This document shows, piece after piece, positions 48,160-62,613 of a DNA stretch of 64,000 nt (its first letter is position 1; each line of letters begins with the position of its first letter). Location: positions 5,537-69,536 of the IMG/VR virus record IMGVR_UViG_3300033068_000911; one strand, given 5' to 3'. Source of the stretch: a virus. Taxonomy: Duplodnaviria; Caudoviricetes. The translations under genes and the position numbers were made by a program. A model generated the notes under the pieces. The model saw only the letters and a program-made list of their open reading frames with translations, made no database searches and had not been told where the DNA came from.

Positions 48160-48760
48160 CCCTAAGGGAGCCTATTGTCATCGGGTATGCATTGAGAATT
48201 ATCATGCTTGGCAAATATCCAATCAATCCTCTGTCCGTACTTGCGAAGATGATTTGACGATTCTCCGTGTGAATCATGCTTCCACTGGCGCTAAACGTCA
48301 CGTACCTAGCTTTGAGTTGCCTCATAAGCTCGTTTTGCAATGCGATGTTAGCTTTCAGTGTTCCCATGATGGCAATGTCGCCACCAGTATGCTGCGCCAC
48401 CCTGGCGATAGTATCGACGTCAATGCGTTTCGGAAGGTGGCGTTCGTAGATGTCACCCCATCGGATTGTGAAGATGAGTCCTTGTCCATGAAGGGCATCG
48501 AGCGTGGCGTAGTAATACCGCTCGGGGTCGCTAGTGTTGATTCTCACCCTCTCAAGAATGAGATAGGGATCAGGCGGGAAGACGTGTTCCGCAGCATCAC
48601 CTTCGGTGATCTGCAATCCCTGGCGTCGAATGCCCACGAGAACGGTCGCGAGGATTGTTGCATACGATGGATACATGATGGCTTCTGCGTTGTCCATCTT
48701 CATGAGGGAATCAACGATGGCGGGGCGGTCGATGCTCACTTCTGGCTTCCCTTCCAGCAT
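48113..48760 (-). CDS. Hypothetical protein (lower-GC segment)
   Basis: 215-aa ORF on the operon strand. Confidence 0.5.
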   Translation of the reverse strand: MLEGKPEVSIDRPAIVDSLMKMDNAEAIMYPSYATILATVLVGIRRQGLQITEGDAAEHVFPPDPYLILERVRINTSDPERYYYATLDALHGQGLIFTIRWGDIYERHLPKRIDVDTIARVAQHTGGDIAIMGTLKANIALQNELMRQLKARYVTFSASGSMIHTENRQIIFASTDRGLIGYLPSMIILNAYPMTIGSLRVAGKAKAKVHLLASS

Positions 48761-48975
48761 TCCTTGTGACGATCCTCGTCGTCATCATAGTTGTTACAAT
48801 CGGAGATTCCTGTGTCACTGCCGGATAGCCAGTAGACATGGCAGTGAGTGCAGTAGTATTCGTTATCATCGTTTTCAAGTCGGTCGCCGCATCGACTGCA
48901 ATATGCGGTAAACTCGATATGCGGAACGGGCTCCGATTTACTTTCTCCGTCAGTGAAATCGATCATTTCTACCAT
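48736..48975 (-). CDS. Small Zn-ribbon protein following array 5
   Basis: GAAGGGA SD; CSRCG...CTHC. Confidence 0.55.
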   Translation of the reverse strand: MVEMIDFTDGESKSEPVPHIEFTAYCSRCGDRLENDDNEYYCTHCHVYWLSGSDTGISDCNNYDDDEDRHKECWKGSQK

Positions 48976-48985
48976 GATGTCCCTT

Positions 48986-49051
48986 CGTCCTTGCCTTGCC
49001 CCGCCATGCCGAGCCTCGCCCAGCCAAGCCGAGCCCGGCCTCGTTGCGCGT
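48986..49051 (-). ncRNA. GGC-NN pentamer array 5 (candidate guide RNA)
   Basis: CGCAAC-GA, then GGC + CG,TC,TT,TG,GA,TC,AT,GG,AA,AA, then GGA-CG; strict 5-nt period. Confidence 0.8.
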
Positions 49052-49087
49052 CTCGCGCAGGTGTGAAACTGCGCGAAACTTGGATAC

Positions 49088-49160
49088 TGCCCTTGCCTTG
49101 CCCCGCCATGCCCTGTCATACCATGCCACGCCTTGCCTTGCCGGGCCAAGCCCTGTTGCG
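49088..49160 (-). ncRNA. GGY-NN pentamer array 4 (candidate guide RNA)
   Basis: CGCAAC-AG, then NN = TT,CC,AA,AA,GT,AT,AT(after GGT),AG(after GAC),AT,GG,AA,AA. Confidence 0.8.
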
Positions 49161-49191
49161 CTCCCCGGTGAGGTGTCGAGCCTCACCGGGG

Positions 49192-49246
49192 ATTCCTTGC
49201 CACGCCTTGCCGTGCCCGGCCATGCCGTGCCAGGCCTCGTCAGGTC
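49192..49246 (-). ncRNA. GGC-NN pentamer array 3 (candidate guide RNA)
   Basis: GAC-CT, GAC-GA, then GGC + CT,AC,AT,CG,AC,AA,GT,AA, then GGA-AT. Confidence 0.75.
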
Positions 49247-49722
49247 TGGTGATTGAGAACTTCGGCCATTTCGCGCTCGCGGCGCATCGCTGCCGCGATA
49301 GCCTGCTCTGCCGCTGCTGTCGCCACGATGTGACGACCGAAGCGGTTGCGCACTGCATTCGTTGCGTTCGTCAGATCGGGCGTTTCTAGCGTTTTCCGCG
49401 CACGCTTCATTGCTTTTCGTGAGCGCTCCTGGTGCCGCGTCGCAAGGGTCAAGTGATCTTCCACGCTGATGATCTGGTAGCCAACGAGGCGCACGGTCTC
49501 AGCGGTGCGGTGGTCGTCCTCCTGAAGCTTGCGCCGCGCTCGTTGAGAGAGTTGCTGTAGTCGCTGCAAGCCATCTTTTGAATGGGGCAGCATGAGCAGA
49601 TCGAGAAGTTCGGCATACTTGACAATCTCGCCTTCCGACATATCGCGGAGCCGGTCATAAATCTTCTGCCAGTCTTCGATCTTGTCGCGAACGGGCACCT
49701 CGTGGGTGATGGTGTCGGTCAC
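49240..49722 (-). CDS. Accessory protein of the RAMP operon (wHTH-like N-terminus, helical C-terminus)
   Basis: WQKIYDRLRDMSEGEIVKYAELLDLL...VRLVGYQI; lies between the RAMP-like gene and array 3. Confidence 0.6.
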   Translation of the reverse strand: MTDTITHEVPVRDKIEDWQKIYDRLRDMSEGEIVKYAELLDLLMLPHSKDGLQRLQQLSQRARRKLQEDDHRTAETVRLVGYQIISVEDHLTLATRHQERSRKAMKRARKTLETPDLTNATNAVRNRFGRHIVATAAAEQAIAAAMRREREMAEVLNHQT

Positions 49723-49768
49723 TCTTCCTCTCCAATCAGGTCAGTCATGCTAGGAATTTCTTTCAATG

Positions 49769-50344
49769 CTACGACACCTTTTCCAGGATCACGGAGAAGC
49801 GACCGAAACGCGGACGCCAGTCGCCAAGGCCGACGAATCCAGAACGGCCCACGATGGCCGAGAAGTCATCCCATGAAAGCGTGGAATCATCCAGCATCCC
49901 CGTCGTTTCAATGCTCCACTCGCTGAACTGCGGACGCGTGCGCATCACACGAGAGTTCGTCACGCGGACGGAACTCACGTTGCGGAACTGCGGGTGCTCC
50001 CAAAGTCCATCGGCGTCGCGAGGGCCGTCGTACCGAAGCGGAATCTCCAGGTTGTCGAGAATCAACGACTTAATGACCGCCTGGCCGTGCCGCGTCGCCT
50101 TGCCCGCGTCCTGAATGCAGCGCACGAGGTTCGCGTCCGGAATGTAGGGGCCGTTCTTGTTGATATAGAGACCGGCGACGAACTCAAGCCGCTGGAGCTC
50201 TTCGATATCCTTGTCGGTCTTATTCGTCTTCTTCGACGTGATGGCCTTCATGGCCTTCGTGATCGGGTCACTCGGATCAACCGAGCGATCCGAGTGCATG
50301 AGAAGGGGAGTGATGCCCTCGATGAAAATGTGGAACTTCTGCAT
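49769..50344 (-). CDS. Stand-alone Cas7/RAMP-like RNA-binding protein (Vipr-like), 191 aa
   Basis: N-terminal strand FIEGITPLLMH, GPYIPDANL (compare Cas7 PYIPGSS), RTRPQF..W, C-terminal Gly-rich loop GFVGLGDWRPRFGRF. Confidence 0.8.
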   Translation of the reverse strand: MQKFHIFIEGITPLLMHSDRSVDPSDPITKAMKAITSKKTNKTDKDIEELQRLEFVAGLYINKNGPYIPDANLVRCIQDAGKATRHGQAVIKSLILDNLEIPLRYDGPRDADGLWEHPQFRNVSSVRVTNSRVMRTRPQFSEWSIETTGMLDDSTLSWDDFSAIVGRSGFVGLGDWRPRFGRFSVILEKVS

Positions 50345-50365
50345 TGTCTTGCCTCTCGTCGTTGT

Positions 50366-50428
50366 TTGCCTTGCCTTGCCGTGCCGCGCCTTGCCGTGCC
50401 AAGCCGTGCCGAGCCCCGCCAAGTTGCG
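50366..50428 (-). ncRNA. GGC-NN pentamer array 2 (candidate guide RNA)
   Basis: CGCAAC-TT, then GGC + GG,TC,AC,TT,AC,AA,GC,AC,AA,AA,AA. Confidence 0.8.
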
Positions 50429-50470
50429 TTTCCCAATGAGGAGTCGAACCTCATTTCGACCATCCGAAAA
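50429..50470 (-). other. tRNA-elbow mimic between arrays 1 and 2
   Basis: TTTTCG-GATGGTCGA-AATGAGG-TTCGACT-CCTCATT-GGGAAA: canonical T-loop with a D-loop-like GG bulge. Confidence 0.65.
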
Positions 50471-50524
50471 AACCCTGCCACGCCCTGCCGTGCCATGCCA
50501 GGCCTAGCCTGGCCACGTTTCGCC
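50470..50524 (-). ncRNA. GGY-NN pentamer array 1 (candidate guide RNA)
   Basis: GGC-GA, AAC-GT, then GGC + CA,TA,CT,AT,AC,AG,GT,AG, then GGT-TT. Confidence 0.8.
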
Positions 50525-50535
50525 CTGGTGGTGCT

Positions 50536-50565
50536 AGCTTAGCGCACCGATTCCCGTCGTTTCAA
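50536..50565 (-). promoter_or_regulatory. Promoter of the RAMP/array operon
   Basis: TTGAAA-N18-TAAGCT followed by GCACCAC, as in the other right-arm promoters. Confidence 0.7.
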
Positions 50566-50721
50566 GCGGCACCTGGGGCAATAATCCAAGTCCATCGCTT
50601 TTCCTAGCCAACCTTCGATAGCCGCCTGCGCCCTCACCTCGGCGAGAGTTCCTGGCATGCCTGGATCGAAAATCTCGCCACACTGGTCACAAGTAAGCGT
50701 CCAGATGAGATAGGCGGTCAC
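50539..50721 (-). CDS. Small Zn-finger protein
   Basis: TCDQCG...DYCPRC. Confidence 0.6.
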   Translation of the reverse strand: MTAYLIWTLTCDQCGEIFDPGMPGTLAEVRAQAAIEGWLGKAMDLDYCPRCRLKRRESVR

Positions 50722-61731: not shown

Positions 61732-61760
61732 AGCCTAGCACACGCTGCTAGGTGTGTCAA
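61732..61760 (-). promoter_or_regulatory. Leftward promoter with conserved leader
   Basis: TTGACA-N17-TAGGCT, then GCACCACAAGCACAATGACGACGAAAGGGCG. Confidence 0.75.
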
Positions 61761-61762
61761 GT

Positions 61763-61803
61763 GCCCGTGCCGGGAGTCGAACTCGGCATGCGACCATCCG
61801 GGC
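61763..61803 (-). other. tRNA-elbow mimic (second copy)
   Basis: GCCCG-GATGGTCGCA-TGCCGAG-TTCGACT-CCCGGCA-CGGGC. Confidence 0.6.
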
Positions 61804-61812
61804 TGAGTTGTC

Positions 61813-62466
61813 CTACGTGATTGAGTAACGCTCTCCATGCATCGGCATTACGTATGCCAGGAAGTCCTCATCGGGACCGAAGCCCATGCGAGACAGGCGG
61901 ATCGGATTCCGCTCGCCGCGCCCTTCGATTTGCAGGGCAGCCGTTGATTTCCCATCACCGGGCAGCCGAACACTGCACGCCCTGGCGAGTCTCATGGGAT
62001 CGACTAGCGCGAATTCGCTTTCGCCATTCTTCGCTGTCATCTTGGACATAAGATTTTCAAGCGCTGGCCATTCGCCATCGATTGGCGAACAGGTGAGAGT
62101 CTGGACATGGTTTCCCATGTAGTCGGCAATGTCGAAATGCACATTTCCTGATTCGTGGTCAGTAATCTTGACCAGGCCTCGCGTCCCGACTGCGCGAACG
62201 AGGTTCGTGAGCAATTCCTTACTCAGCAAGACGGACGTTTCGTCACCCGTCACCTCTCGGTCTTCCTTGTCGATGCGGAATCGCATCCGGCCAAGGATGT
62301 ACCGATCGCTCGCCCATGCCGTGAGCAAGCCACCCTTTGTGTGAACTCGAATGTTCCGAAGAATGGGATATGCATTACCCTCGGCCACGGGTACCGCGTA
62401 GAATTTCTGTAGACCCTGAAGTGCCTTCAGTTGGTTCTGGTCAAGCATGAAAGTACCTGCAAACAT
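61813..62466 (-). CDS. DNA polymerase III beta-clamp-like protein (two-domain)
   Basis: YPILRNI, ASDRYILG (compare ATDRYRLA), IDGEWPALENL, C-terminal FLAYVMPM. Confidence 0.75.
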   Translation of the reverse strand: MFAGTFMLDQNQLKALQGLQKFYAVPVAEGNAYPILRNIRVHTKGGLLTAWASDRYILGRMRFRIDKEDREVTGDETSVLLSKELLTNLVRAVGTRGLVKITDHESGNVHFDIADYMGNHVQTLTCSPIDGEWPALENLMSKMTAKNGESEFALVDPMRLARACSVRLPGDGKSTAALQIEGRGERNPIRLSRMGFGPDEDFLAYVMPMHGERYSIT

Positions 62467-62613
62467 GGCGAATACGCCCTTTCGTCGTGTCTTGTGGAAG
62501 TCGATGCGTCTGGCATCTTGCCCCGCACTCATCAGCGATGAGTGCGAGACGAAACGTCAGTAGCCAAATCGTGCGGCGCGTCTCTCAGCCGCGATGATGG
62601 TCGGTGAGCCGCA

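What the first reader, a model, noticed from the sequence alone, without database searches (positions are those of the whole stretch)
48975..50565. Candidate RNA-guided system: stand-alone Cas7/RAMP-like gene with five GGC-NN arrays (VIPR-like)
Seen, on the - strand: promoter TTGAAA-N18-TAAGCT, array 1, hairpin, array 2, a 191-aa RAMP-like gene, a 160-aa gene, array 3, hairpin, array 4, hairpin, array 5, then a Zn-ribbon gene. Each array has 8-12 pentamers with a fixed GGC (rarely GGT or GAC) and a variable dinucleotide. There is no cas1/2/3/5/6 gene and no CRISPR array. Known: Cas7 RAMPs polymerise along guide RNA with a fixed nucleotide period. I recall a recent description of viral VIPR systems (RAMP plus GGY/NN RNAs) that bind dsDNA through the NN bases; this needs verifying. 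Inference: each protomer grips one GGC and exposes NN, giving programmable, nuclease-free DNA binding, probably repressing competing phages or host genes.
Basis: partly seen in the sequence, partly recalled or inferred. Interest (0 to 1): 0.95.

Follow-up and report, generated by a model that had tools for sequence, protein, structure and literature searches.

The report
Phage VIPR guide-RNA system
This is a real copy of the recently published phage VIPR system, in which a small Cas7-like protein and five-base-repeat guide RNAs bind and silence rival DNA; it is a new example of a known kind, and its guide arrays are separated by tRNA-like hairpins that the VIPR papers do not mention.

Summary
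On the minus strand, five in-register GGC-NN pentamer arrays (52 units) flank a 191-aa and a 160-aa gene in a 69.5-kb uncultivated, actinophage-like virus.

VIPR is described in 2026 preprints (bioRxiv 10.64898/2026.04.26.720920 and .720927).
- **Vipr:** the 191-aa protein matches the solved SUSP1 Vipr (PDB 36pp, E 5.6e-28). It keeps all six named contact residues (five for GGY, plus K33 at the target backbone) and models as a Cas7/Csm3-type RAMP.
- **vap:** the 160-aa protein is a vap1-family winged-helix protein.
- **No CRISPR parts:** no Cas1 and no CRISPR array were found.

It is therefore a type II-like VIPR locus: a new member of a known kind. This scan has already found VIPR on several other genomes.

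- **tRNA-like element (TLE):** the hairpins between arrays are copies or derivatives of a strongly covarying element with a T-loop. The element is widespread in phage intergenic regions, mostly without VIPR, and is absent from Rfam. I infer that it punctuates the vrRNA transcript for host RNase P/Z.
- **Tail-less arrays:** two arrays have no tail and abut ribosome-binding sites.

No natural target was found: there is no self-target, and the only exact hits elsewhere lie in low-GC DNA.

The parts
50536..50565 (-). Putative promoter: TTGAAA (50565-50560), 18-nt spacer, TAAGCT (50541-50536). It overlaps the stop codon of the upstream 60-aa ORF.
   Evidence: Read directly. It would place the transcript start a few nt before A1. 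The consensus scan does not call it, so this is inference only.
50470..50524 (-). vrRNA array A1: 8 clean GGCNN units, preceded by GGCGA and one degenerate unit, and followed by a GGTTT unit. NN = (GA-GT)-CA-TA-CT-AT-AC-AG-GT-AG.
50423..50469 (-). Tail 1, a tRNA-like element (TLE). It has a short closing stem, a linker GGATGGTCGA, and a 7-bp stem with loop TTCGACT, followed by CGCAAC.
   Evidence: Covariance model R1 scores it 45.7 bits, E 6e-8; this copy was one of the 16 sequences R1 was built from. The structure is supported by covariation across 16 and then 89 copies. The MFE fold of this single sequence does not pick the T-arm.
50366..50420 (-). Array A2: 11 perfect GGCNN units with no tail, ending 21 nt before the vipr ATG, so it lies in the vipr 5' UTR. 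NN = GG-TC-AC-TT-AC-AA-GC-AC-AA-AA-AA.
   Evidence: Gordonia phage MakoManhole has the same arrangement (TLE, tail-less array, vipr RBS). M. abscessus prophage BWHA-1 is similar, but with 58 nt between the array and vipr.
49769..50344 (-). vipr, 191 aa: the RAMP protein that binds GGY and presents NN.
   Evidence: PDB 36pp 'SUSP1 Vipr protein', E 5.6e-28 over aa 3-186. H17, K33, R137, D175, W176 and R177 align with SUSP1 H17, K33, R138, D177, W178 and R179. AF2 pLDDT is 95. Top Foldseek hits are all Csm3, type VII Cas7 or Cmr4. It matches phrog_4652 at E 3e-50.
49240..49722 (-). vap (vap1 family), 160 aa: a winged-helix domain (aa ~15-85) followed by long C-terminal helices.
   Evidence: It is 27-33% identical to the gene directly after vipr in 7 actinophage-type loci. 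phmmer gives E 3.5e-5 (against an 11-sequence database) to the vap of the SUSP1-clade phage ESCO50 (the clade is confirmed). Pfam Trans_reg_C is a weak match, E 0.002. In the model, the top hits are OmpR/PhoB-type DNA-binding domains.
49195..49236 (-). Array A3: 8 GGCNN units plus a closing GG. NN = CT-AC-AT-CG-AC-AA-GT-AA.
49155..49192 (-). Tail 2: a 12-bp hairpin with the 7-nt loop CTCGACA, then CGCAAC. It looks like a TLE derivative without the linker, i.e. a minihelix.
   Evidence: Fold energy -29.4 kcal/mol, z -2.5. R1 scores it only 16 bits.
49091..49152 (-). Array A4: 12 units (10 GGC, 1 GGT, 1 GAC) plus a closing GG. NN = TT-CC-AA-AA-GT-AT-AT-AG-AT-GG-AA-AA.
49043..49079 (-). Tail 3: an 11-bp hairpin with an 8-nt loop, then CGCAAC.
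   Evidence: Fold energy -20.1 kcal/mol, z -2.5. R1 does not recognise it.
48989..49040 (-). Array A5: 10 GGCNN units plus a closing GG, with no tail, ending 13 nt before the ATG of the next gene. NN = CG-TC-TT-TG-GA-TC-AT-GG-AA-AA.
48736..48975 (-). Neighbouring 79-aa zinc-ribbon gene directly downstream of A5. Whether it belongs to the system is unproven.
   Evidence: CxxC-x13-CxxC motif. Only weak Zn_Ribbon_1 and HypA matches. No equivalent gene was seen in the related loci.

Best explanation
The locus is a type II-like VIPR (Viral Interference Programmable Repeat) system of an uncultivated, actinophage-like virus.

The operon is array-TLE-array-vipr-vap-array-hairpin-array-hairpin-array, and it is transcribed from the minus strand. 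Vipr protomers polymerise along each GGC-NN array, one protomer per pentamer. They bury GGC and present the NN bases, which pair with double-stranded DNA that carries the same dinucleotides separated by one skipped base. The filament blocks transcription of the bound gene, most likely in a rival phage, satellite or prophage. The winged-helix vap protein assists.

Shown here:
- homology of Vipr and vap to published counterparts;
- conservation of the GGY-contact residues;
- the arrays and their statistical non-randomness;
- the structure of the tail element.

Inferred:
- that the arrays are expressed;
- what they target;
- that the tRNA-like elements between arrays are cut by host RNase P and/or RNase Z to release individual vrRNAs, playing the role that hammerhead ribozymes play in other VIPR types.
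For: - **Vipr sequence:** direct match to the solved SUSP1 Vipr, E 5.6e-28, aa 3-186 of 191.
- **Contact residues:** all residues the cryo-EM paper names for G1, G2, Y3 and the target-backbone contact are conserved (H17, R137, D175, W176, R177, K33).
- **Fold:** AF2 pLDDT 95, with only Cas7-family RAMPs as top PDB fold matches at probability 1.0.
- **Relatives:** 222 homologues, annotated at best as 'hypothetical protein', and 130 phage records, including Gordonia and Mycobacterium phages at 38-46% identity.
- **vap:** homology to the gene after vipr in every related locus and to the SUSP1-clade vap, with a winged-helix model.
- **Arrays:** 52 pentamers, 50 of them GGY, against 0.13 runs expected by chance.
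- **No self-targeting:** none under the 1-nt skip rule, as the authors report for their loci.
- **Interleaving:** arrays alternate with TLEs in 9 further Vipr loci.
- **TLE structure:** covariation score 0.78 against 0.16 for shuffles, 0 of 500 shuffles reaching it, 94.8% of cells paired.
Against: - There are no expression or binding data for this locus.
- No convincing target was found. Exact NNx scans of IMG/VR, the GTDB representative genomes and JGI metagenomes gave only low-GC hits that look like chance.
- The tails differ from the published SUSP1 pseudoknot.
- Tails 2 and 3 in the window are diverged, and arrays A2 and A5 have no tail at all.
- The proposed promoter is below the scan's threshold.
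- The type II assignment rests on similarity to the exemplar and on vap1 homology, not on the authors' phylogeny; their supplementary tables are not held.
- Neither ARAGORN nor Rfam calls the TLE a tRNA-like RNA.
Confidence: 0.9

Rival explanations
1. It is a VIPR locus, but the hairpins are only protective 3' caps that stay on each vrRNA, like the SUSP1 pseudoknot. They are not processing signals, and the vrRNA ends are made by other nucleases or by termination.
For: In SUSP1 the tail remains in the RNP and caps the 3' end. In several loci every array has its own TLE on the 3' side, as in Trine, the MakoManhole downstream cluster and the LittleE upstream cluster.
Against: Five clusters have n TLEs for n+1 arrays: both clusters in the window, BWHA-1, and the downstream clusters of LittleE and L096. 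Trine has a TLE between the vipr stop codon and the first array. The same element occurs 79 of 84 times with no array nearby, about 12 nt after stop codons of unrelated genes. That fits a general RNA-processing or stabilising module.
Confidence: 0.35
2. The two tail-less arrays (A2 before vipr, A5 before the zinc-ribbon gene) are not guides. They are 5'-UTR operators: Vipr filaments assembling on them would occlude the adjacent ribosome-binding site, giving autoregulation of vipr and control of the next gene.
For: A2 ends 21 nt and A5 13 nt before a start codon. MakoManhole has a tail-less array 19 nt before the vipr start, and BWHA-1 has one 58 nt before it. A2 and A5 (like the tailed A4) end in the same GGCAA-GGCAA units. 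No target was found for either.
Against: This is purely positional. Tail-less terminal arrays also occur where no gene follows, as with the last array of LittleE. No VIPR paper reports autoregulation. A2 is a perfect 11-unit array, indistinguishable from a guide.
Confidence: 0.25
3. The repeats are a decaying or non-functional remnant, or a simple-sequence or coding artefact, and the gene pair has another role.
For: Long ORFs can be drawn across the arrays. Two units are degenerate and two tails have diverged.
Against: A 5-nt period cannot be a coding repeat. The true vipr start aligns with residue 1-3 of its homologues. 50 of 52 units keep GGY while NN varies. The protein keeps every GGY-contact residue. 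The arrangement recurs in distant phages.
Confidence: 0.04

Closest known systems
Type II VIPR of Escherichia phage SUSP1 and the Pseudomonas fulva prophage (bioRxiv 10.64898/2026.04.26.720920 and .720927; PDB 36pp)
   Same: - Homologous Vipr (32% identity, E 5.6e-28) with identical GGY-contact residues.
- Homologous DNA-binding vap directly downstream.
- GGY/NN arrays of 8 to 12 units both upstream and downstream of the gene pair.
- Viral genome, with no cas genes and no nuclease.
   Different: - At most 50% identity to any other Vipr found, apart from near-identical (98%) metagenome copies of this same phage lineage (P0001).
- The Y position is almost always C.
- Tails are tRNA-like T-loop elements or plain hairpins, not the SUSP1 pseudoknot.
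- Two arrays lack a tail and sit in 5' UTRs.
- Targets are unknown.
Hammerhead-ribozyme-interspersed vrRNA arrays of VIPR types I and V (same preprint, fig. S19)
   Same: A structured RNA module sits between consecutive arrays and presumably defines the vrRNA ends.
   Different: Here the module is not a self-cleaving ribozyme. It is a tRNA-elbow-like element that would need host RNase P or RNase Z, and cleavage has not been tested.
Class 1 CRISPR Cas7 backbone (Csm3, Cmr4, type VII Cas7)
   Same: - RRM/RAMP fold with a G-loop and thumb.
- One protomer per fixed RNA period.
- Periodic base flipping.
   Different: - No CRISPR array, Cas1/2, Cas5/6 or large subunit.
- A 5-nt rather than 6-nt period.
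- The guide is non-contiguous.
- The Pfam RAMPs model does not detect the protein.
tRNA-like processing modules (MALAT1 mascRNA, RNase P-processed C4 RNA of phages P1/P7; from my own knowledge)
   Same: A closing stem stacked on a T-arm whose loop fits the tRNA T-loop consensus. It lies within a longer transcript whose ends must be made. The Trine TLE gives a sub-threshold, full-length alignment to the Rfam mascRNA model (22 bits, E 1.5).
   Different: There is no D or anticodon arm. The stems are 5+7 bp rather than 7+5 bp. Neither ARAGORN nor Rfam detects it at gathering score. No cleavage has been shown.

Membership tests
VIPR system | Vipr protein: a minimal RAMP homologous to the published Vipr | tested here: met
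   PDB 36pp SUSP1 Vipr, E 5.6e-28, covering aa 3-186 of 191. The model has pLDDT 95 and Cas7/Csm3 top fold hits.
VIPR system | Residues that read GGY and hold the skipped base (SUSP1 H17, R138, D177, W178, R179, K33) | tested here: met
   They align with H17, R137, D175, W176, R177 and K33 of the window protein (alignment; residue list). Nearly all are invariant in a 28-sequence alignment.
VIPR system | Tandem YNNGG (GGY/NN) arrays next to vipr, on the same strand | tested here: met
   Five arrays with 52 units, 50 of them GGY. Chance expectation is 0.13 runs per genome.
VIPR system | Structured invariable 3' tail after each array | tested here: inconclusive
   Three of the five arrays are followed by a hairpin plus CGCAAC; two have none. 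The tail is a T-loop element, not the SUSP1 pseudoknot.
VIPR system | Accessory vap gene (type II: a DNA-binding vap1) | tested here: met
   Homology to the post-vipr genes of 7 loci and to the SUSP1-clade vap. Winged-helix model.
VIPR system | Viral or proviral context without a CRISPR array or cas genes | tested here: met
   A 69.5-kb virus record, 96% complete. No Cas1 and no Pfam RAMP match, and no CRISPR-like repeats.
VIPR system | vrRNAs expressed and bound by Vipr as an RNP | not testable with these tools
   Needs sRNA-seq and a pull-down.
VIPR system | Natural targets that match NN under the 1-nt skip rule | tested here: inconclusive
   No self-target and no match in relatives' VIPR loci. 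Exact scans gave only low-GC hits, probably chance. A mismatch-tolerant search of host pangenomes was not possible.
CRISPR-Cas class 1 | CRISPR repeat-spacer array and an adaptation or effector gene set (Cas1/2, Cas5/6, large subunit) | tested here: not met
   Only one gene with a RAMP fold is present.
tRNA / tRNA-like RNA (for the tail element) | T-arm with loop consensus G-TTCRAnn-C stacked on an acceptor-like stem | tested here: met
   The closing G-C pair of the T-stem is invariant in all 78 distinct copies and the loop core G-TTCGA is invariant in the 16-copy alignment (it was also part of the scan pattern that found most copies). There are 5+7 stacked base pairs, and 11 of the 12 pairs covary.
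tRNA / tRNA-like RNA (for the tail element) | Recognised as a tRNA, tmRNA or curated tRNA-like family | tested here: not met
   ARAGORN found 0 genes in the window. No Rfam family reached threshold; the best was mascRNA at 22 bits against a gathering score of 42.5.
tRNA / tRNA-like RNA (for the tail element) | Cleavage by RNase P or RNase Z | not testable with these tools
   Inference from shape and position only.

The most novel reading that the evidence does not exclude
The hairpins between the arrays belong to a widespread, apparently undescribed phage RNA motif. It is a 12-bp tRNA-elbow mimic with a T-loop and the linker GATGGTCGCA, and it usually sits about 12 nt after stop codons.

On this reading, phages use it to recruit host RNase P/Z to cut polycistronic transcripts. 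Actinophage VIPR systems have co-opted it to release individual guide RNAs. The tail-less arrays left in 5' UTRs let Vipr autoregulate translation.
Probability: 0.3. Interest if true: 0.65.

Novelty: new member of a known kind. Interest (0 to 1): 0.4.

Why it matters
VIPR is a newly described programmable, nuclease-free DNA-binding system, and has been proposed as the ancestor of CRISPR RAMPs.

This locus adds a diverged actinophage-type member: at most 50% identical to other Viprs outside its own near-identical metagenome copies, with all RNA-reading residues intact. That makes it useful for defining which features are essential.

The more interesting by-product is the tail. If vrRNAs here are released by a tRNA-like module that hijacks host tRNA-processing enzymes, that would be a third processing solution for VIPR arrays, after pseudoknot-tailed units and hammerhead ribozymes. 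The same module, scattered through many phage genomes, would be a general phage device for cutting or stabilising transcripts.

Tried and rejected
- **DNA similarity to known phages:** blastn of the locus against 50,697 phage records found nothing. Elsewhere in the genome only a tail-gene fragment matches Microbacterium and Curtobacterium phages, so the host is unknown.
- **Related loci by protein:** The search for related loci failed with the single protein and with the alignment. Related loci were obtained through tblastn hits and exact-protein look-ups instead.
- **Self-targeting:** none. The best 1-nt-skip match is 15 of 20 positions, within the range of shuffled guides.
- **Targeting of relatives' VIPR loci:** none.
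- **Exact NNx scans:**
  - A4 and A5 gave 0 hits in IMG/VR.
  - A2 gave 7 hits, all one 30%-GC small-phage lineage and so a single event; rejected as chance or biologically implausible.
  - A1 core gave 20 hits and A3 gave 10, all in contigs of 26-50% GC, in line with chance for 16 specified bases.
  - A4 with one wildcard unit gave 1 hit in a Lutibacter MAG and 2 in low-GC metagenome contigs.
- **Near-identical relatives:** the DNA of one was unavailable, and the other contig is only 665 nt and diverges right after the vipr stop codon. NN hypervariability between close relatives could therefore not be tested.
- **TLE as a gene-specific cis-regulator:** rejected, because the flanking genes are diverse.
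- **TLE as an attP tRNA fragment:** rejected, because each copy carries its own covarying 5' strand and several copies occur per locus.
Full report
**Observation**

A regular-expression scan of the whole 69,536-bp genome (58% G+C) finds runs of at least four GGYNN pentamers 7 times on the minus strand. Six of these runs lie inside the five arrays. First-order Markov shuffles give a mean of 0.13 such runs, both strands counted.

Allowing isolated degenerate units, the arrays are:
- A1: 50524-50470
- A2: 50420-50366
- A3: 49236-49195
- A4: 49152-49091
- A5: 49040-48989

Together they hold 52 units: 48 GGC, 2 GGT and 2 degenerate. The dinucleotides vary. A 5-nt period cannot encode protein, so the long ORFs that can be drawn across the arrays are artefacts.

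Hairpins follow A1, A3 and A4, and each is followed by CGCAAC. The TTGAAA-N18-TAAGCT motif exists about 12 nt upstream of A1, but it falls below the threshold of the consensus scan. I treat it as a guess.

**What it is**

VIPR is real and published. It is described in bioRxiv 10.64898/2026.04.26.720920 (discovery, the 1-nt skip rule, seven types, vap genes), in 10.64898/2026.04.26.720927 (cryo-EM) and in 10.64898/2026.10.15.759431 (competition with satellites, solo vrRNAs).

The 191-aa protein is a Vipr:
- It matches the solved 'SUSP1 Vipr protein' (PDB 36pp) directly by sequence, with E 5.6e-28 over residues 3-186.
- In that alignment it keeps the residues the cryo-EM paper names for reading G1 (H17, D177), G2 (R138, W178) and Y3 (R179), and for holding the target backbone (K33). 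In the window protein these are H17, D175, R137, W176, R177 and K33. Most are invariant in an alignment of 28 relatives.
- An AlphaFold2 model has mean pLDDT 95. All its top Foldseek matches in the PDB are Cas7-family RAMPs (Csm3, type VII Cas7, Cmr4) at probability 1.0 and TM about 0.5.
- Pfam does not recognise it. PHROGs places it in phrog_4652, of unknown function.

The 160-aa protein is a vap:
- It has no close relatives by word search.
- It is 27-33% identical to the gene directly after vipr in seven actinophage-type loci.
- phmmer gives E 3.5e-5 to the post-vipr gene of phage ESCO50, in an 11-sequence database. ESCO50's Vipr is nearly identical to SUSP1's (E 2e-126).
- Its model shows a winged-helix domain, with OmpR/PhoB-type DNA-binding domains as best fold matches. 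A weak Pfam Trans_reg_C hit agrees.

The genome has no Cas1, no Pfam RAMP match and no CRISPR-like array. It is an IMG/VR virus record, 96% complete. The locus therefore meets the testable defining features of a VIPR system, and it most resembles type II (vipr plus a DNA-binding vap1).

**Relatives**

The family is large: 222 proteins in the metagenome collection, annotated at best as 'hypothetical protein', and 130 phage records. Apart from near-identical (98%) metagenome copies of this same phage lineage, the nearest relatives are only 45-50% identical. Among named phages these are:
- Gordonia phages MakoManhole and Trine
- Mycobacterium abscessus prophage prophiBWHA-1
- Mycobacterium phage LittleE

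In all of them, and in metagenomic loci L005, L009, L010, L096 and L115, GGYNN arrays lie on the vipr strand, upstream and/or downstream of vipr-vap.

**The tails**

In this actinophage-type clade the sequence after an array is not the pseudoknot of the SUSP1 clade, nor the hairpins of a Pseudomonas locus. It is a compact element that I call the TLE. It consists of:
- a 5-bp closing stem;
- a 10-nt linker, consensus GATGGTCGCA;
- a 7-bp stem whose 7-nt loop and closing pair read G-TTCGAnT-C, which is the tRNA T-loop consensus;
- the 3' strand of the closing stem stacked directly on it, giving 12 stacked base pairs, as in the tRNA acceptor/T minihelix.

Covariation supports the structure:
- On 16 copies from eight loci, the covariation score is 0.66 against 0.18 for shuffles, with 0 of 500 shuffles reaching it.
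- A covariance model (R1) applied to 88 sources gave 89 matches, 78 of them distinct. Of all cells, 94.8% are paired, 11 of 12 pairs covary, and the score is 0.78 against 0.16. Versions with the partners slid by 1-3 columns score at most 0.21. One caveat is that this alignment was fitted to the model.

In the window:
- Tail 1 is a clear copy (45.7 bits), though it was one of the 16 sequences R1 was built from.
- Tail 2 is a 12-bp hairpin with loop CTCGACA and no linker (16 bits).
- Tail 3 is an 11-bp hairpin that the model does not recognise.

ARAGORN and Rfam do not call any of these a tRNA-like RNA. The best Rfam alignment is a sub-threshold, full-length match of a Trine copy to mascRNA. None of the four papers that mention VIPR contains the words tRNA or RNase P/Z in this sense.

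**The TLE is not specific to VIPR**

An exact scan of IMG/VR with the linker plus T-loop pattern returned 93 stretches. In the 80 that were fetched:
- only 3 loci encode a Vipr;
- only 5 of 84 copies have an array within 60 nt;
- the rest lie in contigs of 35-73% G+C, typically 11-15 nt after the stop codon of one gene and 20-50 nt before the ribosome-binding site of the next;
- the flanking genes are unrelated to one another.

The window itself has one stand-alone copy at 61811-61751 (37.7 bits). It lies between a stop codon and a TTGACA-N17-TAGGCT motif. In MakoManhole, Trine, BWHA-1 and LittleE, by contrast, the model hits only the VIPR loci.

**How it most likely works**

By homology (shown for SUSP1, inferred here):
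- Vipr coats each array with one protomer per pentamer, hides GGC and presents NN.
- The filament binds dsDNA carrying the same dinucleotides with one skipped base between them.
- Binding blocks transcription, and vap helps.

For RNA biogenesis I infer that the TLEs are punctuation. Three observations support this:
- Five array clusters have n TLEs for n+1 arrays: both clusters in the window, BWHA-1 upstream, LittleE downstream and L096 downstream.
- Trine has a TLE between the vipr stop codon and its first array.
- The spacing from a TLE to the next array is only 1-10 nt.

A tRNA-elbow mimic is the natural substrate shape for RNase P (cutting 5' of it) and RNase Z (cutting 3' of it). That statement rests on established knowledge of those enzymes and was not tested here. 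It would parallel the hammerhead-interspersed arrays of VIPR types I and V. Whether the TLE stays attached as a 3' cap, as the SUSP1 pseudoknot does, or is cut away cannot be decided here.

Arrays A2 and A5 have no tail and end 21 nt and 13 nt before start codons. MakoManhole and BWHA-1 also place a tail-less array before vipr, 19 nt and 58 nt from the start. Autoregulation by Vipr binding its own leader is an attractive but untested reading.

**Targets**

Targets remain unknown.
- There is no self-target under the 1-nt skip rule, in line with the authors' controls.
- There is no match to relatives' VIPR loci.
- Exact-pattern scans of IMG/VR, GTDB representative genomes and JGI metagenomes gave only hits in low-GC sequences. 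Seven of these are copies of a single lineage.
- The tools do not allow the authors' mismatch-tolerant search of host pangenomes.
- The host itself is unknown, because only a tail-gene fragment resembles Microbacterium and Curtobacterium phages.

**Verdict**

The system belongs to a family published in 2026, and earlier follow-ups in this scan found the same family on several other genomes. It is therefore a new member of a known kind.

The added value lies in two points that deserve their own follow-up: the tRNA-like punctuation element, which is widespread and apparently undescribed, and the tail-less leader arrays.

Noticed in passing
window 61751-61811 (-): A stand-alone copy of the tRNA-like element (closing stem GCCCG/CGGGC, linker GATGGTCGCA, loop TTCGACT) with no pentamer array nearby. 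It starts 1 nt after the stop codon of ORF 62532..61813 and is immediately followed by TTGACA-N17-TAGGCT. R1 scores it 37.7 bits, E 4.5e-6.
   Followed up: partly
L054-L133 (IMG/VR contigs): The tRNA-like element is a widespread phage intergenic RNA motif.
- 93 exact pattern matches in IMG/VR, in contigs of 35-73% G+C.
- Usually 11-15 nt after a stop codon and before the next gene's RBS.
- Flanking genes are unrelated to each other.
- Only 3 of 80 loci have a Vipr.
- Covariation is very strong.
- It is not in Rfam 15 and was not found in the paper library under its linker sequence.
   Followed up: partly
window 50366-50420 and 48989-49040 (-); L001 1694-1753; L003 2423-2470: Tail-less arrays sit in the 5' UTR just before a ribosome-binding site: before vipr in the window, MakoManhole and BWHA-1, and before a zinc-ribbon gene in the window. 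This suggests possible translational autoregulation by Vipr.
   Followed up: partly
ENA contig of sample ERZ22666135 (no DNA available) and L053: Near-identical relatives of this phage exist in metagenomes. In one, the gap between the 158-aa gene and vipr is about 300 nt longer than here, which may mean extra upstream arrays. In the other, the sequence diverges completely right after the vipr stop codon. The array regions seem to be the variable part of the locus.
   Followed up: partly
L013-L019 (IMG/VR, 30% G+C, 4-7 kb contigs): The 22 specified bases of guide A2 match exactly, in codon register, a coding sequence of one lineage of small low-GC phages. I judged this chance or biologically implausible for a 58%-GC actinophage-like virus, but it is the only full-length exact match found.
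   Followed up: partly
The genome thus carries several distinct T-loop-bearing RNAs.
   Followed up: no
window 50539-50721 (-) and 48736-48975 (-): Two small CxxC zinc-ribbon ORFs (60 and 79 aa) bracket the VIPR locus. No equivalent genes were seen next to vipr in the related loci, so their link to the system is unknown.
   Followed up: no
GGCAA units across loci: The unit GGCAA (NN = AA) is over-represented. It often ends arrays (A2, A4, A5, MakoManhole) or starts them (ESCO50, L010). It may be a default or filler unit, and it lowers the information content of the guides.
   Followed up: no
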